Shown here: piece after piece, positions 1,837 to 12,070 of the stretch | How the letters are laid out: every line of letters starts with the position of its first letter | How positions within the stretch are numbered: the first letter of the stretch is position 1 | From: a virus | Taxonomy: Duplodnaviria; Heunggongvirae; Uroviricota; Caudoviricetes | Strand: one strand, 5' to 3' | DNA: 12,070 nucleotides | Virus record (IMG/VR): IMGVR_UViG_3300029721_000142 | Notes under the pieces: generated by a model | Seen by the model: the letters and a program-made list of their open reading frames with translations, nothing else | The model's database searches: none | Told to the model about the DNA's origin: nothing | Position numbers and translations under genes: made by a program

Positions 1837-2212
1837 ATGAATACTGGATATTCTCCCGAACAAGGGCGGGGCTTCGTTCGTCCTGAAAAACAGAATCTGC
1901 AAAATTTTGCCGAAATTATTCCGGTTATTTCCGGCCTTACTGGCGGGAGTGAAACCAATATTGCTAACGCCAGAGCGTTGCAGATGTTTGATGATAAAAA
2001 GGGAGTAAATTTAACTTACACCCCTGACGGCAATCAGAATATGAGCATTATCTCTGAGTCAGGTTTCTACAAACTAATAAAAACAAAAAGCGCCCCGTTG
2101 CCGGAGCGCCTTTGTGAACAATTAACCTACTGCGCAAAAAATGAATCTGAGCAGTGGGATTATATCAACCATGTGGAGAAGCGCCACAATTGCCGAATAA
2201 CGGGCAAAACAA
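1837..2212 (+). pseudogene. Protein-like 5' part of a 423-codon ORF (1837..3108); probable 3'-truncated gene remnant, possibly with a Bro-N/antirepressor-like fragment
   Basis: The first ~125 codons have normal protein composition (ISESGFYKLIKTKSAPLPERL is faintly Bro-N-like). From about 2212 to 2922 the same frame becomes Cys/Ser/Arg-rich nonsense while the opposite strand holds two well-formed small genes and a terminator. The frame reopens as a plausible small gene only at 2923. No in-frame stop exists before 3108. Confidence 0.3.
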
Positions 2213-2233
2213 AGGCCACCCGCTACGGTGGCC
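2201..2233 (-). terminator. Rho-independent terminator for the minus-strand two-gene operon
   Basis: Perfect 7-bp stem GGCCACC / GGTGGCC (2214-2220 and 2227-2233) with a 6-nt loop. On the minus strand it is followed by TTTGTTTTG. It lies about 80 nt downstream of the 62-aa gene stop. Confidence 0.5.
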
Positions 2234-2312
2234 CCTCGACACAAGCTACACGTTATCCCCAACGCATGAGCATTGCCAACAATGCCACATTTGCGGCTGG
2301 TGGGCAATGCAA

Positions 2313-2501
2313 TCAGTCTGGTTCAGTTCGTTGCCATACCTGCAATGAGCGCTTTTCCCTGTACTCTTTAAGGAATTGCTCAAGGGCAAAAGCACATGGC
2401 GCGAATCTTTCTGATTCATGCTCTATCTTTCTGCGCCGTCTTTTCCGTGCCGGTGATAATGTTTTGGTCAATTCTTTATCGGTCATTGTGTTGTCCTGCA
2501 T
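2313..2501 (-). CDS. Small basic protein (62 aa), downstream partner of the RHH gene; function unknown
   Basis: ORF in the same frame and operon as the RHH gene. Contains an arginine/lysine cluster (ARKRRRRK) followed by a predicted helical segment. An alternative start exists at the second Met (MTDKEL...). Confidence 0.45.
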   Translation of the reverse strand: MQDNTMTDKELTKTLSPARKRRRRKIEHESERFAPCAFALEQFLKEYREKRSLQVWQRTEPD

Positions 2502-2543
2502 AGCAATGCGCCGTAGTTCCTCACACCACGGCGCTGATGGTGA

Positions 2544-2723
2544 TTACTCTGGTTCTTTGGCCTTGCGCCGCTGGCGATATTCAACTTCTCGTTTTAATGC
2601 CGCAGTAACAAATTGCCCCGTACTTTCGCCAGGCATTTTTACCGCCTCAACATTGTTCATAACTTCATGCGGAACCCTTGCCGCAACGGTTTGTGATTTT
2701 GCGTTTACTGCTTTTGTCGCCAT
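2544..2723 (-). CDS. Ribbon-helix-helix (CopG/Arc/MetJ-like) DNA-binding protein, 59 aa; candidate repressor or antitoxin
   Basis: Hand-translated from the minus strand (below the ORF-track size cutoff): MATKAVNAKSQTVAARVPHEVMNNVEAVKMPGESTGQFVTAALKREVEYRQRRKAKEPE. Layout is beta strand (TVAARVP), helix A, loop, helix B, typical of RHH proteins. RBS GAGGGG sits 7 nt upstream of the ATG and an in-frame stop lies 5 codons upstream. It faces the operator cluster at 2773-2826. Confidence 0.65.
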   Translation of the reverse strand: MATKAVNAKSQTVAARVPHEVMNNVEAVKMPGESTGQFVTAALKREVEYRQRRKAKEPE

Positions 2724-2772
2724 GTGGTGTACCCCTCATAAAAAACAAATGCAGTATGCAGGAAAAAAAATA

Positions 2773-2826
2773 AGTGTTCAACACTTGACGTGTTTAACAC
2801 CTGGGTTTAAATTGGTGTTCAACACC
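2773..2826. promoter_or_regulatory. Operator cluster: three copies of the palindrome GTGTT(C/T)AACAC overlapping divergent promoters
   Basis: Seen directly: aGTGTTcAACACt (2773-2785), GTGTTtAACAC (2790-2800), gGTGTTcAACACc (2814-2826). A plus-strand promoter candidate is TTGACG (2785-2790), 17-nt spacer, TAAATT (2808-2813). A minus-strand promoter candidate is TTGAAC, 17-nt spacer, CATACT upstream of the RHH gene. Operators overlap the -35, spacer and +1 regions. Confidence 0.6.
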
Positions 2827-2922
2827 TTGTTGGCGCAAGGTGCAGAAACGACGAAACCCGGCAGTGCGCTAACACTAACCGGGCTTCTAACCACCAACGA
2901 TAGCGAAAGTATCGAGGTAGCT

Positions 2923-3108
2923 ATGAGAAATCATACCACACACCCGCAAGGGCGGGACTCGCACGACCTGAATAAATACATCTGGCGTTTTATCGCCCTG
3001 AGCACGGCACAACCGCGCGTGATTACCATCGAGGCCACCAGCGAACAGGAAGCGCGTCAGCAATCTCCTGATGGCTGCGTGATGGTATTCGCTGCCCGTA
3101 TTCGCTAG
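2923..3108 (+). CDS. Small protein (61 aa), tentatively Icd-like/Ash-region-like; first gene of the early operon
   Basis: ATG at 2923 with RBS GAGGT 5 nt upstream. Protein MRNHTTHPQGRDSHDLNKYIWRFIALSTAQPRVITIEATSEQEARQQSPDGCVMVFAARIR. The ATSE.EAR....FAAR motif resembles small Icd-like proteins found upstream of replication genes in P4-like prophages (from memory, unverified). Confidence 0.45.
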   Translation: MRNHTTHPQGRDSHDLNKYIWRFIALSTAQPRVITIEATSEQEARQQSPDGCVMVFAARIR

Positions 3109-3118
3109 GGGGTAGGCC

Positions 3119-3340
3119 ATGTGCAATAAAACCACACCGGACGCAGCAGCCGCCGCGCTCACTACGCTGATGCACGCGCTTATTGATATTGAATGCACGG
3201 CAGAGCTTGCGCAGGGAGAAGAACAGAAAGACCGGACAACGTTCGCCCAGGAATGTATCCGATACATCGCAACGCGGTCACTGAATGACGCTAAAAATAT
3301 TCTTGTTGCCGATTGTGAAAATGGGGGGGGTTATGCGTGA
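3119..3340 (+). CDS. Hypothetical protein (73 aa)
   Basis: ORF with RBS gggggtagg upstream, tightly packed in the early operon. The C-terminus runs through a G8 homopolymer and overlaps the next gene by 8 nt. Confidence 0.5.
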   Translation: MCNKTTPDAAAAALTTLMHALIDIECTAELAQGEEQKDRTTFAQECIRYIATRSLNDAKNILVADCENGGGYA

Positions 3341-3554
3341 TGATCGTTTTAATTCCCTGAAACAGGAATTTTCCGGCGTTCCTGATGATGCGGCTGATGC
3401 GCTTTCGTCAATGCCAGAGCTTATTAGAGCGGCTTTTTTCTTACTTTCCACGAGAGAATATAAATCAACGGGGCTTGATGTACTGAATATCGCCGCCGAT
3501 TATGCTGATTTCGTGACAGAGGTTATTTTAAGAAAAACGACGGACGGGGATTAA
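3333..3554 (+). CDS. Hypothetical protein (73 aa; MRDDRFNSLKQEF...)
   Basis: The ORF track starts this frame at 3285, but the ATG at 3333 directly follows the G8 tract (RBS-like) and avoids a long overlap with the upstream gene. Start choice is an inference. Confidence 0.5.
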   Translation: MRDDRFNSLKQEFSGVPDDAADALSSMPELIRAAFFLLSTREYKSTGLDVLNIAADYADFVTEVILRKTTDGD

Positions 3555-3555
3555 T

Positions 3556-3789
3556 ATGCGTGATATTTACCACGAAACAATAGACCGCGCATTTCTTGCA
3601 CTTTCTCACAGTGAAAACATGCTGGAAATATTGCGCATATGGCTTGAAACACTTGGCGACAATGAACGCGACAAACAAAAATCAAGAATTGCCACGGCAT
3701 TAATAACGCTTCTTGAGCCTGTAATAATGGAACTGCAAGAAATAGATCTATTGCACGACAGATATAAAGAACAGCACACCGGAGAATAA
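3556..3789 (+). CDS. Hypothetical protein (77 aa)
   Basis: ORF starting 2 nt after the previous stop, with protein-like helical composition. No family recognised. Confidence 0.55.
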   Translation: MRDIYHETIDRAFLALSHSENMLEILRIWLETLGDNERDKQKSRIATALITLLEPVIMELQEIDLLHDRYKEQHTGE

Positions 3790-3794
3790 AAATA

Positions 3795-4094
3795 ATGAAA
3801 CTTAAATATTCTGGCTTAACTGCCAGTGGCAACACTCACCCTAAATTTACGCGCGGTGATATTTACCGCGACCAGTACGGCGGCACGGTAATGATTAAGG
3901 GCGTGGAAGAACGGCGCGTAACCTACCGCCGTGAAGGTTACGAATATGATTGCGTGATGCCTGTTTATCAGTTCCGGCGTGATTTTTCTCTGGTACAGAC
4001 CGCGCCGCATAACGTGCCCACCAGCAACGCCAGGGCACGGGCAAACATCCAGAAGCTGAAAACCATGATTAACGGATTCAGGGGCAAGAAATGA
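3795..4094 (+). CDS. Hypothetical protein (99 aa)
   Basis: ORF whose stop overlaps the rep start (ATGA at 4091-4094), implying translational coupling. No family recognised with confidence. Confidence 0.55.
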   Translation: MKLKYSGLTASGNTHPKFTRGDIYRDQYGGTVMIKGVEERRVTYRREGYEYDCVMPVYQFRRDFSLVQTAPHNVPTSNARARANIQKLKTMINGFRGKK

Positions 4095-5491
4095 AAAGCG
4101 CACCGAACTTAAAAAAACAGCCTTACGACAAGATGACCGAAGTCATTATTTTTGCGGGTAGTGATGCCTGGGCACATGCGAAACAGTGGCAGGAACAGGA
4201 CGGGCGACTGGCTGGCGATAATGTGCCTCCCGTTGTGCTGGCTGATGATCAACTGGATGAACTGGCAGACCTGAGAATCATCGACGAGGGGCGCTATTGT
4301 GTCCGGCTGTACAAGGCAGGCCACATCAGGCCATCAAATATTAATGCCATTGCGCACAAGCTGGCGGCGGCGGGTGTAACTGATGCGAATTATTACCCCG
4401 AAGGGATGCACAGCCATATGCGGGAGAACTGGCGCGAATACCTGGAACGGGTGCGCGGGAAAGAGCCGGTGGAAGAAAAAAACCACCAGCGAAAAACCAC
4501 GCTACCGATGAGCGTTGGATCTACCGGATACGACACGCAACTGGATTACGTGGTTAAGGGGATTATTCCGGCGGTATCGCTATGCAGCATATACGGGGCT
4601 AGCGGGTCCTATAAATCATTCCTTGCCGGATCGTGGGCGTGCCATGTTGCCACTGGTCGCCAGTGGGGAGGCCGCAGGGTTGCACATGGTGCGGTTCTCT
4701 ATGTGGTTGGTGAAGGCGGTATAGGTGTTCCGCGTCGTGTAAAAGCCTGGGAGGTTGTGCACGATGAGCAGGTGAAAAATCTGTATCTGGTAAACCGCCC
4801 CATCTTTCCGGCTGCCCCGCTTGATGTTGATGAAATGGTTATCGCTGCCCGTCAGGTGGAGCGGGAAACGGGTAAACCTGTACGCATGATTATTCTGGAT
4901 ACGCTGGCGCGTTGCTTTGGTGGGAATGATGAAAATGATTCCCGTGATATGGGGGCGTTTATCCGTGGTTGTGACGAACTGAAACGACGCACAGGGGCCA
5001 CGGTGCTGGTGGTTCACCATTCCGGCAAGGATGAGACGAAAGGCGCGCGCGGTTCCAGTGCATTTCGTGCTTCGCTGGATGCTGAATACCGGATACGCAG
5101 GGAGGACGCAGGAAGCGAAGCGCTGGTTATCTCATGCACCAAAATGAAGGACGCGGAGGAACTCAAAGAAGCCGCATATGACTTACGCGTGGTGGAGCTT
5201 TTTACCGACGCTGACGGTGAATTAATCACGTCGCTGGTGGTGGTGGATGATCCGCGCCCTCCTGTTGAACTGGAGCGCATCGAGGAGGCAGGGAACAAGA
5301 CGGAAAACCATACCGCGCTATGGGGGTGCATCCGTTCACGCACACAGAACGGCGACAAGTGCACGATCCCGCTGTTACGTGATGACATGAAAAAGCTGGG
5401 GTATGAAATGAAAAACTTCCGGCGCTGGCTGTACAAGCTGGAAAAAGATGGGGTTATTCGTATCGATGGGGATGATGTAGCGCCGCTATAA
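4091..5491 (+). CDS. Replication protein: RecA-fold RepA/DnaB-like ATPase (AAA_25 type) with an N-terminal TOPRIM-like region
   Basis: 466 aa. P-loop IYGASGSYKSFLAG, Walker B MIILDTLARC, and the RepA-type motif VLVVHHSGKDETKGARGSSAFRASLD. N-terminal EVIIFAGSDAWAHA ... PVVLADDQLDE is suggestive of a TOPRIM-like domain (inference). Followed immediately by an iteron array. Confidence 0.8.
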   Translation: MKSAPNLKKQPYDKMTEVIIFAGSDAWAHAKQWQEQDGRLAGDNVPPVVLADDQLDELADLRIIDEGRYCVRLYKAGHIRPSNINAIAHKLAAAGVTDANYYPEGMHSHMRENWREYLERVRGKEPVEEKNHQRKTTLPMSVGSTGYDTQLDYVVKGIIPAVSLCSIYGASGSYKSFLAGSWACHVATGRQWGGRRVAHGAVLYVVGEGGIGVPRRVKAWEVVHDEQVKNLYLVNRPIFPAAPLDVDEMVIAARQVERETGKPVRMIILDTLARCFGGNDENDSRDMGAFIRGCDELKRRTGATVLVVHHSGKDETKGARGSSAFRASLDAEYRIRREDAGSEALVISCTKMKDAEELKEAAYDLRVVELFTDADGELITSLVVVDDPRPPVELERIEEAGNKTENHTALWGCIRSRTQNGDKCTIPLLRDDMKKLGYEMKNFRRWLYKLEKDGVIRIDGDDVAPL

Positions 5492-5691: not shown

Positions 5692-5943
5692 ATGACCCAA
5701 AAACGCAGAGACAGAACAGAGCCAAAATATAAAGCGTTAGACATGACTGAGCACACCTTAAAGGTGGCAATCAGAACGATAGACCGCCACACGCGGGAAG
5801 GATACGCGAAGGAACATCCCGACCTGATAAGCGCATTCATGACCACGGCGGCGGCAAACTTTGCCACGCTGACAGAACGGGAGATTGCCGAAGCGGAACA
5901 GGTAACAACCATCAACGTTAAAACCGGAGAGGTGGAATCATGA
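5692..5943 (+). CDS. Hypothetical protein (83 aa)
   Basis: ATG at 5692 with RBS GAGAGG upstream. The ORF-track start at 5662 lies inside the iterons. The stop overlaps the ssb start (ATGA). Confidence 0.5.
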   Translation: MTQKRRDRTEPKYKALDMTEHTLKVAIRTIDRHTREGYAKEHPDLISAFMTTAAANFATLTEREIAEAEQVTTINVKTGEVES

Positions 5944-6350
5944 CAGCACAGATAGCCGCTTACGGGCGGCTGGTGGACGACCCGCAGGTAAAACAGACCA
6001 GCAAGGGCACACCGATGACGCTGGCGCGTATGGCGGTCCCCCTTCCGTGCAGCCAGGCAGATGACGGAACGGCGACGATGTGGTTATCCGTCCTGGCATT
6101 TGGCAGACAGGCCGAAGCACTGGAAAGGCACCGCAAGGGTGAACTCCTGAGCGTGGCGGGTAACATGCAGATCAGCCAGTGGACTGGGCAGAACGGAGAA
6201 ACGCGGCAGGGTTATCAGGTTATTGCAGACAGCGTAATCAGTGCCCGTGCGGCACGTCCTGGCGGGAACAGACGCAAAACCACAGGCACACAGGGTAATC
6301 AGCTACCAGCGGGAGGCGATGACCCTTACGGTGATGATATTCCGTTCTGA
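5940..6350 (+). CDS. ssb: Single-stranded DNA-binding protein (phage-type SSB)
   Basis: 136 aa. OB-fold-like core (IAAYGRLVDDPQVKQTSKG ... WLSVLAFGRQAE ... GELLSVAGNMQISQWTGQNGETRQGYQVIADSV), a Gly/Gln-rich linker, and the hallmark acidic C-terminal tail DDIPF. Confidence 0.9.
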   Translation: MTAQIAAYGRLVDDPQVKQTSKGTPMTLARMAVPLPCSQADDGTATMWLSVLAFGRQAEALERHRKGELLSVAGNMQISQWTGQNGETRQGYQVIADSVISARAARPGGNRRKTTGTQGNQLPAGGDDPYGDDIPF

Positions 6351-6360
6351 GGGGGTGAGG

Positions 6361-6609
6361 ATGGTACATGACCGCATAGCGGAGGAACTCGAGGCAAAAG
6401 GCTTTTACCGGAGGGCGGCGGCACGATGGGGTGAAGTCATGCAACTGGTGGAGACAGACAAGGAACGGCATCAGGTTACGATGCGACGGCTGGAATGTTC
6501 CAGGAAGGCACAGAGGCCACCGGAGCCGCCAACGGAGAACTATGCAGACCTGAGAAATGCAGTAAATCGCACTTACGCAGACATGGGGCTGAGCAAATTA
6601 GCAGAGTAG
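6361..6609 (+). CDS. PerC-family-like transcriptional regulator (82 aa)
   Basis: ATG at 6361 after RBS gaggggg; the ORF-track start at 6241 overlaps ssb and is rejected. The N-terminus MVHDRIAEELEAKGFYRRAAARWGEVM matches my recollection of the PerC family signature (LE.KGLYRRAA.RW). Last gene before the double terminator. Confidence 0.55.
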   Translation: MVHDRIAEELEAKGFYRRAAARWGEVMQLVETDKERHQVTMRRLECSRKAQRPPEPPTENYADLRNAVNRTYADMGLSKLAE

Positions 6610-6863: not shown

Positions 6864-7070
6864 ATGGCTGAAGAGAAAAAAGGCGGTGTTTCGGTGTACA
6901 TAAGCCCCGACATCGTGAAGGCGCTCAAGGAACGCCACCAGCAGAACGTAAAAGCAGGCATTGCGGCAGGACTTGATCCGCTGGCGATGGTTGAGCCGTC
7001 AACAGGCTGGCAGGTACGCGCCTATTTACGCGCGGCGCTGGGTATGAATCAGGTTCACGGGGGTGAATAA
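6864..7070 (+). CDS. Hypothetical protein (68 aa), first gene of the late/capsid operon
   Basis: ORF with a good RBS. Its stop overlaps the capsid gene start (TAATG), implying translational coupling. Function unknown; a scaffold or size-determination role is speculation. Confidence 0.6.
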   Translation: MAEEKKGGVSVYISPDIVKALKERHQQNVKAGIAAGLDPLAMVEPSTGWQVRAYLRAALGMNQVHGGE

Positions 7071-8125
7071 TGACAGTAAAAGCAATGGCACTTAACACTA
7101 ACCAGCTTTTTGCGTACCTGAATCGCGGGGATATTGCGGAATTTAAATTCAGTCCGCTGTTTACCACGCTGTTTTTCCCGAACGTGGCGACATTCAGCAC
7201 GCAAAACATCATGCTGGATACCCTGGACATTGAAGAAGTCACCATGTCGGCGTTTTGTTCGCCTATGGTGGGTAGCCAGGTTCAGCGCGATAAAGGGTAC
7301 GAAACCAGCACGATTAAACCTGGCTACATGAAGCCAAAGCACGAAATCGATCCAACGAAAACCATCATGCGCATGGCTGGAGAAGATCCGGCACAGCTTA
7401 ACGACCCTACCTATCGCCGTATGCGCCTGATTACTGGCAATATGCGCCGCCAGATAAACGCCATAAAAGCGCGCGTGGAATGGCTGGCGGTAAATGCGGT
7501 AACGACCGGAAAAAACATCATTGAAGGCGAAGGCATAGAGCGCTATGAAATCGACTGGAAGATACCGGAAAAAAACATCATAGAGCAGGCCGACGGGAAA
7601 AAATGGTCAGAGCAGGACAAAGAAACCCACGATCCAATCTATGATATCGAACTATACGCCGATCAGGCTGGTTGCCCCGCAAACGTCATGATTATGGGCG
7701 CTGAGGTATGGCGAACGTTACGCAGCTTTAAAAAATTCCGTGAGCTGTACGATCTTTCCCGTGGTTCAGAGTCCGCCGCAGAGCTGGCCTGTAAAAACCT
7801 GGGCGAAGTGGTGAGCTTTAAAGGCTATCTGGGCGATATTGCCCTTATCGTCTATTCCGGCAAATACACTGACAGCGACGGCACAGAAAAATATTTCCTT
7901 GAGCCTGATTTGCTTGTCCTGGGCAACACCAACAATAAAGGGCTGGTGGCCTATGGTGCGATTATGGATCAGGACGCAGTAAGAACGGGCGCAACGCAAA
8001 ACATGTTTTACCCGAAAAACTGGATTGAGGACGGCGATCCGGCGATTGAGTACGTGCAGACGCACAGCGCACCGCAGCCGGTTCCGGCAGATATTCGCAA
8101 ATTTGTTACCGTCAAAATTGGTTAA
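7070..8125 (+). CDS. Major capsid protein, lambda gpE-like (HK97 fold)
   Basis: 351 aa. Blocks of recalled similarity to lambda gpE (341 aa): EFKFSPLFTTLFF vs KFKFDPLFLRLFF; KPGYMKPKHEIDP vs TPGYVKPKHEVNP; DPTYRRMRLITGNMR vs DPAYRRRRIIMQNMR; KWSEQDKETHDPIYDIELYA vs EWSKRDKSTYDPTDDIEAYA; YPKNWIEDGDPAIEY vs YPKNWVTTGDPAREF. Similar length. Confidence 0.9.
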   Translation: MTVKAMALNTNQLFAYLNRGDIAEFKFSPLFTTLFFPNVATFSTQNIMLDTLDIEEVTMSAFCSPMVGSQVQRDKGYETSTIKPGYMKPKHEIDPTKTIMRMAGEDPAQLNDPTYRRMRLITGNMRRQINAIKARVEWLAVNAVTTGKNIIEGEGIERYEIDWKIPEKNIIEQADGKKWSEQDKETHDPIYDIELYADQAGCPANVMIMGAEVWRTLRSFKKFRELYDLSRGSESAAELACKNLGEVVSFKGYLGDIALIVYSGKYTDSDGTEKYFLEPDLLVLGNTNNKGLVAYGAIMDQDAVRTGATQNMFYPKNWIEDGDPAIEYVQTHSAPQPVPADIRKFVTVKIG

Positions 8126-8136
8126 CGGGGGATTCT

Positions 8137-8472
8137 ATGGACACTCCATACATTGAGTTATTTGCAGGCAGTCAGCAGGTCGCCACGACGCTGGTACATT
8201 TTGCCGCTGATGCTGGCGTTATTCAGGAATTTACCCCGCTGATGCTGGCGGACAATGGCGAGTTTAAGCCGTGGGATGGTAAGGAATCTGGCAAGGCTGT
8301 TTATCTGACCTCGTACCCTGTGGACACGTCAAAGCAGAAATCAGCACAGTGTTACAAGACGGGGATATTCAATATTGCCGCCGTTAACTGGCCTGAGAGC
8401 GTCGACACCGATGCGAAAAAATGCGCCGCCTTTGCGGGTTCCGGCGTATCCGTTCAGCCGCTGGCCCGATAA
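8137..8472 (+). CDS. Head decoration protein, lambda gpD-like
   Basis: 111 aa vs lambda gpD 110 aa. Recalled motif similarity: TPLMLADNGEFKPWDG vs TPLMLDTSSRKLVAWDG; YKTGIF vs YKSGTF; WPE; KKCAAFAGSGVS vs KKRTAFAGTAIS. Gene order is E-like then D-like, the reverse of lambda. Confidence 0.85.
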   Translation: MDTPYIELFAGSQQVATTLVHFAADAGVIQEFTPLMLADNGEFKPWDGKESGKAVYLTSYPVDTSKQKSAQCYKTGIFNIAAVNWPESVDTDAKKCAAFAGSGVSVQPLAR

Positions 8473-8927: not shown

Positions 8928-8992
8928 CGGGTCCTTCCTGGAATTATGGCCCGTTACGGGGCGGCGACCTCGCGGGTTTTCGCTATTTATGA
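8928..8992 (+). other. cos-like element, left copy: cosQ-like flank + cosN (GGGCGGCGACCT, 8959-8970) + 22 bp of lambda-like left-end sequence; no R-site array
   Basis: Seen directly: cgggtccttcctggaattatggcccgttacg GGGCGGCGACCT cgcgggttttcgctatttatga. The 12-mer equals the phage lambda cohesive end, and the flanks resemble the lambda right end (ACGGGTCCTTTCCGG...GTTACG) and left end (CGCGGGTTTTCGCTATTTATGA), quoted from memory. It is an inverted duplicate (63/65) of 9676-9740. Confidence 0.75.
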
Positions 8993-9059
8993 CGTTTTTC
9001 CGTGAAGGTGACACCACCACCACTTGATTAATATTTAACCATGCAGTTAAGGTAACATT

Positions 9060-9494
9060 ATGATTGATAAAGCTTGTTTTGTAAGTCAGCAGGAAATAGC
9101 TGAACATTTCAAGGTTAACAGAACCACTATTCGCGCATGGACCAAACAGGGGATGCCGTATCTTAATGCGGATCGCGGAAAGTCTGGCGGTTATCACATC
9201 GGGCATACATTGCTTTGGTCTTCAGGTAAAAGCCGTCTTGAGGCCATCAGATATCACGTAGAAACCAGTGCGCTGGAAAAAATTATGTTTGCCAGGCTGC
9301 TTTCATCTGAGCGTGACGAGTACTCCAGTGAAGAAACAGAACATCGATTTGATGAAGGTTTGCAGATTTACGGCTATTCACCGGAAGATGTGAGCAAGGC
9401 ACGAAATAAAATGGCTGGCTTTCTGGCTGGGTGGCGTCATGCCGTAAGCGTTCGCCGTGCCAGCATGGAGCAATCAGCCGATACAGAACAGTAA
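9060..9494 (+). CDS. Small terminase subunit-like protein with a Nu1-type N-terminal DNA-binding domain; candidate packaging-specificity or redirection factor
   Basis: 144 aa. N-terminus MIDKACFVSQQEIAEHFKVNRTTIRAWTKQGMPYLNADRGKSGGYHI parallels lambda Nu1 MEVNKKQLADIFGASIRTIQNWQEQGMPVLRGGGKGNEVLY (winged HTH). The C-terminal half is unlike the Nu1 region that binds gpA. The gene sits between the two cos copies. Confidence 0.8.
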   Translation: MIDKACFVSQQEIAEHFKVNRTTIRAWTKQGMPYLNADRGKSGGYHIGHTLLWSSGKSRLEAIRYHVETSALEKIMFARLLSSERDEYSSEETEHRFDEGLQIYGYSPEDVSKARNKMAGFLAGWRHAVSVRRASMEQSADTEQ

Positions 9495-9562: not shown

Positions 9563-9740
9563 ATGTCCGGTTTTAGTGTCTGTTTTTTGCGCATGTCCGG
9601 TTCATGGAAAGCATGTTTTTATATTTTTCATATGGTTAACTTGCAGAGAAACCGGACATGGATCCCGAAAAATTTTCATAAATAGTGAAAACGCGCGAGG
9701 TCGCCGCCCCGTAACGGGCCATAATTCCAGGAAGGACCCG
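9563..9740 (-). other. Complete cos-like site in inverted orientation: cosQ-like flank, cosN (9698-9709), three R-type repeats ATGTCCGGTT, AT-rich bend region
   Basis: Seen directly. cosN lies on the minus strand as aggtcgccgccc. Repeat copies are at 9563-9572 and 9593-9602 (direct) and 9650-9659 (inverted, nearest cosN), with an AT-rich segment at 9611-9633 between them. This mirrors the lambda cosN-R3-I1-R2-R1 layout but with a different repeat sequence (lambda R elements contain CGTTTCC). Confidence 0.75.
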
Positions 9741-10609: not shown

Positions 10610-12070
10610 TTATTCATCTTTCGGCGCAGAATGCTGGCGACCAAAAATCACCTCCATCCGCGCACCGCCCAGCATGCTCTCTCCGGCGACGATTTTACCC
10701 TCATATTGCTCGGTGATTTCGCGGGCTACCGCCAGCCCTACACCTTGCCCAGGGCGTAAAGTATCAACCCGTTGACCACGGTCGAAAATGACCTCTCGCT
10801 TGCTTAATGGAATACCGGGGCCATCATCCTCGACCACAATATAGAGATGCTCGTCGGTTTGCCTTGCAGAAATTTCGACAAACTCGAGGCAATATTTACA
10901 GGCATTATCCAGCACGTTGCCCATCACCTCGACAAAATCGTTCTGCTCACCGACAAAGCTGATCTCTGGCGAAATATCGAGAGAGATATTGACCCCTTTG
11001 CGTTGATACACTTTGTTCAGCGCTGAGGTGAGATTGTCCAGCAGTGGGGCGACCGGATGCAGCTCGCGGCTGAGCAATGTCCCGCCGCGCATACTGGCAC
11101 GATGCAGGTAGTAGCCAATTTGCTGTGAAATGCGGCTGATTTGCTCCAGCATTACCGGCTCAGCATCACTGACGCTCATCTTTTCACTACGCAGAGAACG
11201 CAGCGTACTTTGCAGCACCGCCAGTGGCGTTTTCAGACTATGGGTCAGGTCGGTGAGCGTCGTACGGTATTTGTCGTAACGTTCGCGTTCACTTTTTAAC
11301 AATCGGTTCAGGTTTCGTACCAGACTGGTCAGTTCTCGCGTTGTGGCTGGATTGAGCAATTCGCGGTTATGTTCTTCCAGTTCGCGGACTTCTTTTGCCA
11401 GGGCTTCGATGGGGCGTAAACTCCACCAGGCGGCGACCCACAGCAGCGGGATCACTAACAGCAGATTGGCTGAGAGCACATAGATAAACCAGCTCCAGAC
11501 CATATAGGAACTTTTTAGCTCCACCGGAATGGTATCCACCACCACAATGGTTAATTTTGGCATCCGCGATGTTGCCGGGTAGACGTTTACTGCCACCGAG
11601 TGGGTCATCTCCGCGTCGTCATCATCTTCCCGCACTTCCTGCAACTGTTGCTGTATCGAATGATCTCCACTCAGCAAGAGGCTGGTATCGTTAACATCCG
11701 CTTCAATTTCATGAAAACCATTCGATTTCAGCCAGTCAGGCTGGATCATCTTCATCAGCCAGGGCACGTCACGTTGCGCCCATAAAAGCTGCCCGTTCTC
11801 ATCATAAATTAGCGTCATGGTGGGGCTTTGCTTGTCGATATTTTCGGGTAACTCGACATGCAACTTATTGTTTTCCCACTTCGCAAGGGTATAGAACAGA
11901 TTGCTCTCGCCACGTAACAGCCGAAACGTAGTTTTATCGAAACTGACGCTATAACCGATCAGCGCGACCATTCCGTAGGCAAGCGAAAGCACCAGTACTA
12001 CCGCTGCCGTTGCCAACAGAAAACGTACCCGCAGCGAGAGCGGGAAAAAAAGACGCAGTAATTTTTTCAT
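10610..12070 (-). CDS. phoQ: Sensor histidine kinase PhoQ (PhoP/PhoQ two-component system)
   Basis: 486-aa ORF spanning to the window edge. Two transmembrane segments flank a periplasmic sensor domain with the acidic patch EDDDDAE, followed by HAMP, the phosphoacceptor His box ([12 protein letters not shown]) and an ATPase domain with G boxes (DDGPGI, GQGVGL). Sequence matches E. coli PhoQ as I recall it. Confidence 0.97.

What the first reader, a model, noticed from the sequence alone, without database searches (positions are those of the whole stretch)
3119..4094. Four tightly coupled small ORFs (73, 73, 77, 99 aa) precede rep: unknown early functions, candidate helper-interference or anti-defence genes
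The genes are separated by 8-nt overlap, 2 nt, 5 nt and an ATGA overlap, showing strong operon structure under the operator-controlled early promoter. None carries a signature I recognise. In satellites and phages this position often holds host-takeover, helper-interference or anti-defence proteins.
Basis: inference. Interest (0 to 1): 0.45.

Follow-up and report, generated by a model that had tools for sequence, protein, structure and literature searches.

The report
Early small genes of a PICI satellite
The four small genes are real and sit at the start of the replication operon of a known type of E. coli phage satellite; one is the known regulator RgdR, three have unknown function, and the first two are joined or split by an unstable run of G bases.

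Summary
ORFs 3119-3340, 3333-3554, 3556-3789 and 3795-4094 are conserved, under purifying selection and tightly packed. One correction: the ORF2-ORF3 spacer is 1 nt, not 2. The window is an EcCICFT073-type phage-inducible chromosomal island (PICI) next to phoQ, with int, alpA, Icd-like, Rep, SSB, PerC, capsid and decoration homologues, Rpp and two lambda cosN sites.

ORF4 is not unknown. It is RgdR (DUF4222), 81% identical to ECs1581 and 94% to CFT073 C1493, and always ATGA-coupled to rep. A DUF4222 gene also overlaps the replication-initiator gene in one lambdoid phage lineage.

ORF3 is a conserved acidic partner that usually lies directly upstream of rgdR. ORF1 and ORF2 are a mosaic accessory pair. 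Their boundary is a G-run (G8 here) that varies from G7 to G10 among 131 related loci. G7 and G10 (29%) fuse them into one 144-145-aa protein; G8 and G9 leave two coupled genes. Both halves are equally constrained in either state.

Nothing supports an anti-defence or helper-interference role. In the prototype island, interference maps to rppA. The function of ORF1-3 remains unknown: no family names one and structure models were of low confidence. This is an ordinary region with one modestly interesting unstable junction.

The parts
2774..2827 (+). Three copies of the palindromic motif GTGTTNAACAC that bracket a sigma-70-like promoter (TTGACG-17-TAAATT, 2785-2813). This is the candidate operator/promoter of the early operon.
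   Evidence: consensus matches only, function not tested
2923..3108 (+). Icd-like small basic protein (61 aa), the first gene of the operon, directly upstream of ORF1.
   Evidence: NCBIfam NF033153 E 2.7e-19; phrog_6196
3119..3340 (+). ORF1, 73 aa, acidic (pI 4.5), predicted helical hairpin. It is the N-half module of the ORF1/ORF2 pair (phrog_5146; N-half of phrog_2512).
3323..3330 (+). G8 homopolymer at the ORF1/ORF2 boundary. It encodes the Gly residues at the ORF1 C-terminus and lies 2 nt upstream of the ORF2 ATG, where a Shine-Dalgarno would sit. Its length varies from G7 to G10 among relatives.
3333..3554 (+). ORF2, 73 aa, acidic (pI 4.4), helical. It is the C-half module (phrog_24341; C-half of phrog_2512). 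It starts with ATGCGTGAT, overlapping the ORF1 stop.
3556..3789 (+). ORF3, 77 aa, acidic (pI 5.0), phrog_2196. This conserved small protein usually lies directly upstream of rgdR, including in the capsid-forming island EcCIEDL933. Its start repeats the ATGCGTGAT junction motif.
3795..4094 (+). ORF4 = RgdR orthologue (DUF4222), 99 aa, basic (pI 10.2), RGD motif at residues 20-22. Its stop overlaps the rep start (ATGA).
   Evidence: PMC3378721
4091..5491 (+). Rep, a RepA-type helicase (AAA_25), 466 aa. Its N-terminal ~122 aa are shared with primase-type Rep proteins of sister islands.

Best explanation
The stretch is the promoter-proximal part of the replication (early) operon of an EcCICFT073-type phage-inducible chromosomal island (PICI) integrated next to phoQ. 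It holds three evolutionary units, not four independent genes.

1. ORF4 is RgdR, a small basic DUF4222 protein predicted (at low confidence) as a short beta-sheet core plus a C-terminal helix.
- Shown: it is always made from a frame overlapping the start of the replication initiator gene.
- Inferred: its native job is in the island's replication or early control, as a weakly DNA-associated cofactor produced together with Rep.
- The published effects of its orthologues on host genes (LEE1 up, motility down) would then be the consequence of leaky expression.

2. ORF3 is a conserved acidic helical protein that almost always sits directly upstream of rgdR. Inferred: it partners or modulates the basic RgdR.

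3. ORF1 and ORF2 are a variable, mosaic accessory pair of acidic helical proteins that work together. Fusion in some relatives is the Rosetta-stone type of evidence for this.
- Shown: their boundary is a hypermutable G-run that encodes the glycine linker and sits where the ORF2 Shine-Dalgarno would be. G8 and G9 give two translationally coupled polypeptides; G7 and G10 give one 144-145-aa fusion. Selection does not distinguish the two states.
- Inferred, with low confidence: their biochemical target is a helper or host protein.
For: Element identity:
- int, AlpA, Icd-like and AAA_25 Rep.
- SSB, PerC, capsid E and head-decoration D homologues.
- Rpp homologue (PDB 6HLK, E 5e-31).
- Two exact lambda cosN 12-mers inside a 78-nt inverted repeat.
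- Same roxA-phoQ site in the closest complete genome.

RgdR:
- Pfam DUF4222, E 1.6e-24.
- 81% identical to ECs1581 and 94% to CFT073 C1493 (identity), with the RGD motif present.
- ATGA coupling to rep in 57 of 57 loci, although rep is helicase-type or primase-type.
- A bona fide DUF4222 ORF overlaps the start of an O-like initiator gene in 68 loci of one lambdoid phage lineage.

ORF3:
- The ORF3-like gene is directly upstream of DUF4222 in EcCIEDL933 and in other islands.

ORF1/ORF2:
- The two halves match the two halves of phrog_2512.
- Fused 144-155-aa proteins dominate the top hits.
- Distant relatives carry the halves as separate 72-77-aa proteins.
- A 121-aa gene separates the halves in the closest complete genome.
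- The G-run is G7 in 33 loci, G8 in 61, G9 in 30 and G10 in 5, out of 131 loci from two collections.
- G-run length loses its correlation with flank divergence above about 0.1%.
- Control homopolymers in the same loci are nearly invariant.
- dN/dS is the same in split and fused loci.
- The AlphaFold2 model shows two helical hairpins joined by a low-confidence linker.
Against: - No biochemical or structural evidence assigns a function to ORF1-3. There is no Pfam, NCBIfam, PADLOC or PDB sequence match.
- Both structure models are of low confidence (pLDDT 60 and 56) and Foldseek found nothing significant.
- The replication-linked role of RgdR rests on synteny only. The phage evidence comes from a single lineage (86-100% identical queries).
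- The published RgdR phenotypes concern host transcription, not replication (PMC3378721).
- The ORF3-RgdR pairing is broken in at least one island, where an ORF2-like gene precedes DUF4222.
- Some G-run length calls could be assembly errors.
Confidence: 0.55

Rival explanations
1. One reading: the small ORFs, especially ORF1/ORF2 and perhaps ORF3, are helper-interference, host-takeover or anti-defence proteins that bind and inhibit a helper or host protein.
For: - The proteins are small, acidic and helical, and sit early in the operon.
- The slot between Icd-like and ORF3 is mosaic: alternative ORF1 alleles, alternative ORF2 tails, inserted genes, and presence or absence.
- dN/dS is moderately high at 0.3-0.4.
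- The family is narrow, with 40 representatives among 1.84 billion proteins, and ORF3 is absent from deposited phage genomes.
Against: - There is no similarity to any characterised inhibitor.
- In EcCICFT073, deleting rppA alone restored lambda plaque titres nearly to those on the island-free host (PMC6739421).
- No anti-defence profile library was available here, so this could not be tested directly.
Confidence: 0.2
2. The G-run is a true contingency (phase-variation) switch. Changing between fused and split ORF1-ORF2 changes the activity or specificity of the protein, giving the satellite population pre-adapted variants.
For: - The homopolymer length is polymorphic at G7-G10 in two independent collections.
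- The length changes between near-identical flanks.
- Other homopolymers in the same loci are stable.
Against: - The in-frame fraction (29%) is about what random lengths would give.
- ORF2 keeps its own ATG and Shine-Dalgarno-like stretch in every state, so nothing is switched off.
- Both halves are equally constrained in either state.
- Distant relatives manage with two separate genes and no G-run.
Confidence: 0.12
3. ORF1/ORF2 in this window is a frameshifted pseudogene of a 145-aa gene, either decaying or the product of a sequencing error.
For: A relative that is near-identical across this junction and downstream, though 95.7% identical over the whole 1,477-base query, has one G fewer and a single annotated 148-aa ORF. 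Fused forms are the best-scoring database hits.
Against: - G8 is the most common state, in 61 of 131 loci.
- The exact 73-aa ORF2 is on at least 1000 contigs.
- Two independent assemblies reproduce the allele.
- dN/dS is the same in split loci.
- Distant homologues are separate genes starting at the same Met.
Confidence: 0.05
4. RgdR is purely a host-directed transcription modulator, for example an antagonist of nucleoid-protein silencing, carried as a cargo or virulence gene with no role in the island's own cycle.
For: Published phenotypes of the orthologues: LEE1 activation, motility repression, Congo-red binding and weak non-specific DNA binding. Effects were seen from the uninduced island (PMC3378721; PMC10877973). 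A promoter-like site inside ORF3 (3700-3728) could drive rgdR on its own.
Against: - The gene is encoded by all analysed E. coli PICIs (PMC6092414), including those in strains without LEE.
- It is always overlapped with rep.
- DUF4222 is also coupled to an initiator gene in a phage lineage.
- Cargo genes in PICIs usually sit at the ends of the element, not inside the replication operon.
Confidence: 0.2

Closest known systems
RgdR (ECs1581, E. coli O157 OI-51 / EcCIEDL933) and C1493 (EcCICFT073)
   Same: ORF4 is 99 aa and a DUF4222 protein. It is 81% identical to ECs1581 and 94% to C1493, keeps the RGD motif, and sits in the same position directly upstream of the replication gene of an island at the same chromosomal site.
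   Different: It has six substitutions relative to C1493. Its activity on LEE1 or motility was not tested. The rep gene here is RepA-helicase type, whereas EDL933 has a DUF927 primase.
EcCICFT073, the prototype Gram-negative PICI (Fillol-Salom 2018, 2019)
   Same: Both have int, alpA, the small-ORF block, rgdR, pri-rep, SSB, PerC, capsid and decoration homologues, Rpp, two cosN sites, and insertion next to phoQ (PMC6092414).
   Different: This is a mosaic allele. The best complete-genome match to the 2724-4200 region is only 95.7% identical and carries an extra gene. The window also has an inserted minus-strand module with a YlcI/YnfO-like gene.
Homopolymeric-tract contingency loci (slipped-strand phase variation, as in Neisseria or Haemophilus)
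   Same: A run of at least 7 G lies inside coding sequence. Its length differs between near-identical relatives and changes the reading frame.
   Different: No product is switched off, because the downstream half keeps its own start codon. There is no sign of selection on frame. Switching within a strain was not measured.
Early small-gene blocks upstream of the primase in P4-like satellites (for example epsilon and orf151 upstream of alpha)
   Same: Small early genes lie between the immunity/regulatory region and the replication gene of a satellite. This comparison rests on my own knowledge of P4, not on a test here.
   Different: No sequence similarity was detected to any named family. PICIs and P4 are reported to share only distant homologues of AlpA, Pri-Rep and Int (PMC6092414).

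Membership tests
RgdR / DUF4222 (PF13973) | Pfam DUF4222 match above the gathering score | tested here: met
   85.7 bits against a cut-off of 27, E 1.6e-24, residues 16-68
RgdR / DUF4222 (PF13973) | Full-length (99 aa) orthology to the studied proteins ECs1581 and C1493, with the RGD motif at residues 20-22 | tested here: met
   81% identity over 99 aa to ECs1581; 94% to C1493/AAN79962 (P0167; sequence, identity); TRGDIY is visible in the sequence
RgdR / DUF4222 (PF13973) | Activates LEE1 and represses motility | not testable with these tools
   This needs reporter and motility assays. It is reported for the orthologues in PMC3378721.
EcCICFT073-type PICI | int, alpA and pri-rep core in this order, with no lysis or tail genes, and a size of about 10-15 kb | tested here: met
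   int 1-1230, alpA 1596-1784, rep 4091-5491; the element ends before phoQ at about 10.5 kb
EcCICFT073-type PICI | Rpp (redirecting phage packaging) protein and lambda-type cos sites | tested here: met
   9060-9494 matches RppC (PDB 6HLK, E 5.3e-31); exact GGGCGGCGACCT at 8959-8970 (+) and 9698-9709 (-)
EcCICFT073-type PICI | Induction and high-frequency transfer by a helper phage | not testable with these tools
   This requires experiments.
Anti-phage defence or anti-defence gene | Similarity to a known defence or anti-defence family | tested here: inconclusive
   There was no PADLOC hit for any of the ORFs, but PADLOC covers defence systems only. No anti-defence library was available.
Phase-variable contingency locus | Homopolymer in coding sequence with length polymorphism among close relatives | tested here: met
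   G7 to G10 in 131 loci, changing at 0.1-0.5% flank divergence; control runs are stable
Phase-variable contingency locus | Tract length switches expression of a product on and off | tested here: not met
   ORF2 keeps its ATG and upstream G-rich stretch in all states. Both halves are intact in nearly all loci and equally constrained.
Programmed ribosomal frameshift or transcriptional slippage site | A conserved out-of-frame arrangement that requires a shift to make the long product | tested here: not met
   The frame relation is not conserved: 29% of loci are in frame, and the split loci fall into two different out-of-frame states.

The most novel reading that the evidence does not exclude
The G7-G10 run at the ORF1/ORF2 boundary is a working contingency switch in a phage satellite. 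Slippage toggles an early accessory protein between a tethered two-domain form and two free subunits, which changes which helper or host factor it engages. This would be phase variation by slipped-strand mispairing used by an E. coli mobile element in its conflict with phages.
Probability: 0.1. Interest if true: 0.6.

Novelty: new member of a known kind. Interest (0 to 1): 0.3.

Why it matters
The region is the least studied part of a well-known satellite family. The work places three facts on record:

- The gene next to rep is RgdR, a regulator known only for its effects on virulence genes. Its invariable coupling to replication initiators, in islands and in one phage lineage, suggests where to look for its native function.
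- ORF3 is its regular neighbour.
- The ORF1/ORF2 pair is a natural fusion/split polymorphism driven by an unstable G-run. This predicts a physical complex, and it warns annotators that '73 + 73 aa' and '145 aa' entries are the same locus.

None of this changes the general picture of how these islands work.

Tried and rejected
- Profile searches of ORF1-3 against Pfam, NCBIfam and PADLOC gave nothing usable. PHROGs gave only families of unknown function.
- Sequence and profile searches of the Protein Data Bank found nothing for ORF3, ORF4 or the ORF1-2 fusion.
- AlphaFold2 on the fusion (28 sequences) gave pLDDT 59.8, and on RgdR (30 sequences) 56.0. Foldseek against the PDB gave no hit better than E 0.28, so no fold assignment is claimed.
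- I tested whether ORF1, ORF2, ORF3 and the optional 77-aa gene are paralogues. hhalign probabilities were 1% or lower, so this was rejected.
- The exhaustive search of 1.84 billion representatives found only 40 relatives and no informative fusion partner. The 477-aa and 823-aa hits look like a read-through call and a spurious match.
- Rfam found nothing at gathering score.
- ORF3 has no match in 50,697 deposited phage genomes.
- The pseudogene and sequencing-error readings of the ORF1/ORF2 split were considered and rejected.
- A programmed frameshift was rejected because the frame relation is not conserved.

Full report
**1. What is in the window**

The window carries a phage-inducible chromosomal island (PICI) of the EcCICFT073 type, the prototype Gram-negative PICI (PMC6092414, PMC6739421). 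Its genes are:

| Coordinates | Feature | Evidence |
|---|---|---|
| 1-1230 | tyrosine integrase | |
| 1596-1784 | AlpA | |
| 2313-2501 and 2544-2723, minus strand | two small genes; the second is YlcI/YnfO-like | |
| 2923-3108 | Icd-like gene | NCBIfam E 2.7e-19, |
| 3119-4094 | the four ORFs of the finding | |
| 4091-5491 | RepA-type helicase (AAA_25) | |
| 5940-6350 | SSB | |
| 6241-6609 | PerC | |
| 7070-8125 | lambda E-type capsid homologue | |
| 8137-8472 | D-type head decoration homologue | |
| 9060-9494 | Rpp homologue (PDB 6HLK RppC, E 5.3e-31) | |
| 8928-9005 and 9663-9740 | 78-nt inverted repeat; each arm holds an exact lambda cosN 12-mer | |
| 10610-12070, minus strand | phoQ | |

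In the closest complete E. coli genome, the same island lies between roxA and phoQ.

**2. The observation**

- ORF1/ORF2 overlap by 8 nt.
- ORF3/ORF4 are separated by 5 nt.
- ORF4/rep overlap as ATGA.

They are real coding regions:
- The junction geometry is conserved in 57-67 related loci.
- Median pairwise dN/dS is 0.28-0.39.
- The exact proteins occur on 38 (ORF1) or at least 1000 (ORF2, ORF3, ORF4) public contigs.
- Two independent assemblies reproduce the exact allele.

A promoter-like site at 2785-2813 is flanked by three GTGTTNAACAC repeats. No + strand terminator-like site follows before the end of rep. This fits one operon running Icd-like, ORF1-4, rep. These are consensus matches only.

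**3. ORF4 is a known gene**

- ORF4 hits Pfam DUF4222 at E 1.6e-24.
- It is 81% identical to RgdR/ECs1581 of E. coli O157 and 94% identical to C1493 of CFT073.
- It keeps the RGD motif.

RgdR activates the LEE1 promoter, represses motility and shows weak non-specific DNA binding. C1493 complements it (PMC3378721; PMC10877973). It is reported to be encoded by all analysed E. coli PICIs (PMC6092414).

New observations here:
- The rgdR stop overlaps the rep start (ATGA) in 57 of 57 loci. This holds whether rep is a 465-471-aa helicase type or a 582-707-aa primase type.
- The rep types share their first ~122 residues at 65% identity.
- A 59-aa DUF4222 ORF (E 7.9e-19) overlaps the start of an O-like replication initiator gene (HTH_36/DnaD_N) in 68 loci of one lambdoid phage lineage.

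I therefore infer that the protein's native role is tied to replication or early control. The host phenotypes would follow from its leaky expression. This inference rests on synteny only.

The AlphaFold2 model is of low confidence (pLDDT 56). It shows four short strands and a C-terminal helix. Foldseek found nothing significant.

**4. ORF3**

- ORF3 is a 77-aa acidic protein (pI 5.0) in phrog_2196, a family of unknown function.
- It is very conserved in E. coli and absent from deposited phage genomes.
- A distant homologue occupies the same place directly upstream of rgdR in the capsid-forming island EcCIEDL933 (BLASTP E 2e-8; hhalign 87.5%). The same holds in two other island types (98.6% and 67%).
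- In one island, an ORF2-like gene carrying an ORF3-like C-terminal tail takes this place instead.
- The last codons of ORF3 (HTGE) contain the GGAG that precedes rgdR.

An acidic partner for the strongly basic RgdR (pI 10.2) is a reasonable guess. It is untested.

**5. ORF1 and ORF2**

These two ORFs match the two halves of one PHROG family, phrog_2512.

In a relative that is near-identical across this junction and downstream (E. coli SW070917; 95.7% identical over the whole 1,477-base query), the G-run at 3323-3330 is one G shorter. There, a single 148-aa ORF is annotated.

A pattern scan across two collections gave the following G-run lengths:

| G-run length | Loci (of 131) | Reading |
|---|---|---|
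| G7 | 33 | fused |
| G8 (as in the window) | 61 | split |
| G9 | 30 | split |
| G10 | 5 | fused |
| interrupted run | 2 | split |

- G7 and G10 fuse the two ORFs into a 144-145-aa protein. This is 29% of loci, about the one-third expected without selection on frame.
- G8 and G9 leave two genes. ORF2 then starts 2 nt after the run.
- Loci with identical flanks nearly always share the G length (11 of 13 pairs).
- The length already differs at 0.1-0.5% flank divergence and is random above 1%.
- Other homopolymers of 5-8 nt in the same loci are almost invariant.

The tract is therefore specifically unstable, and read errors are an unlikely general explanation.

Both halves are intact in nearly all loci. 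They are equally constrained in split and fused loci.

An exhaustive search found only 40 representatives of the family. Among distant relatives, the halves are separate 72-77-aa proteins without a G-run. In the closest complete genome, a 121-aa gene lies between them.

My reading:
- Two genes is the ancestral arrangement.
- The G-run, which supplies both glycine codons and a Shine-Dalgarno-like stretch, makes accidental fusions that are tolerated.
- The two proteins therefore probably act together.

The AlphaFold2 model (pLDDT 60) shows two helical hairpins joined by a low-confidence linker.

ORF2 and ORF3 both begin with ATGCGTGAT, overlapping or abutting the previous stop. This repeated junction may help module exchange.

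**6.

- No evidence for anti-defence or helper interference was found.
- In EcCICFT073, deleting rppA restored lambda plaque titres nearly to those on the island-free host. That study cloned only the genes downstream of the origin.
- The mosaic, presence/absence behaviour of the ORF1/ORF2 slot leaves an accessory conflict role possible for that pair.

**7. Verdict**

- The operon structure is confirmed.
- One of the four ORFs is already known, and two are halves of a split/fusion pair.
- Function is still unknown for three.
- The region is ordinary for this family.
- The unstable G-run junction and the link between DUF4222 and replication initiators are the only points of modest interest.

**Limits**

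- The dN/dS values come from pairwise counts on mosaic alignments.
- Loci from public collections may include related strains.
- No experiment was possible.

Noticed in passing
window 2850-2922, minus strand: A sub-threshold Rfam match to the SymR antisense RNA family (33.3 bits against a gathering score of 61, E 4.7e-4, full-length model, two stem-loops). It lies antisense to the leader and ribosome-binding site of the Icd-like gene. This could be a cis-antisense control of a toxic small gene.
   Followed up: no
window 8928-9005 and 9663-9740: A 78-nt inverted repeat (91% complementary) flanks the rpp gene. Each arm contains an exact lambda cosN 12-mer GGGCGGCGACCT (8959-8970 on +, 9698-9709 on -). 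This matches the two cos sites reported for EcCICFT073.
   Followed up: partly
window 1837-3108, + strand: A 423-aa open frame runs across the minus-strand genes. Its 5' part resembles the start of a longer Icd-like gene that is annotated as a pseudogene in relatives. It looks like a mosaic scar left by insertion of the minus-strand module 2313-2723, not a gene.
   Followed up: partly
window 2544-2723, minus strand, and 2774-2827: A YlcI/YnfO-family protein (59 aa) is transcribed divergently from the early operon. It looks by eye like a ribbon-helix-helix protein. Next to it are three GTGTTNAACAC palindromes that overlap the promoter-like site. This is a candidate repressor-operator pair.
   Followed up: no
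window 3700-3728, + strand (inside ORF3): A promoter-like site (TTAATA-17-AATAAT with an extended TG) lies about 65 nt upstream of the rgdR start. It might explain the published rgdR phenotypes from uninduced islands.
   Followed up: no
window 4091-4456 (Rep residues 1-122); L019: The N-terminal ~122 residues of Rep are shared (65% identity) between helicase-type (466 aa) and primase-type (584 aa) Rep proteins. A recombination boundary therefore lies inside rep, and ORF3, rgdR and the Rep N-terminus travel as one block.
   Followed up: partly
L001 9397-9640; proteins P0003, P0019, P0132: Some relatives carry an extra 77-aa gene (MSQEITLQQ...) between Icd-like and ORF1. In H1 (L001) this junction carries a run of A, and the 77-aa gene is read as fused to ORF1 in some records (217-221-aa proteins; P0019 on 52 contigs). 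This may be a second frame-unstable junction. The A-run length in the fused records was not examined.
   Followed up: partly
L141 2980-3159 (Escherichia phage vB_EcoS-733R5, ON470608.1): A clear DUF4222 ORF on the + strand is not annotated. The record instead annotates a hypothetical protein on the opposite strand (2938-3225). The replication gene may also start 66 nt earlier than annotated.
   Followed up: partly
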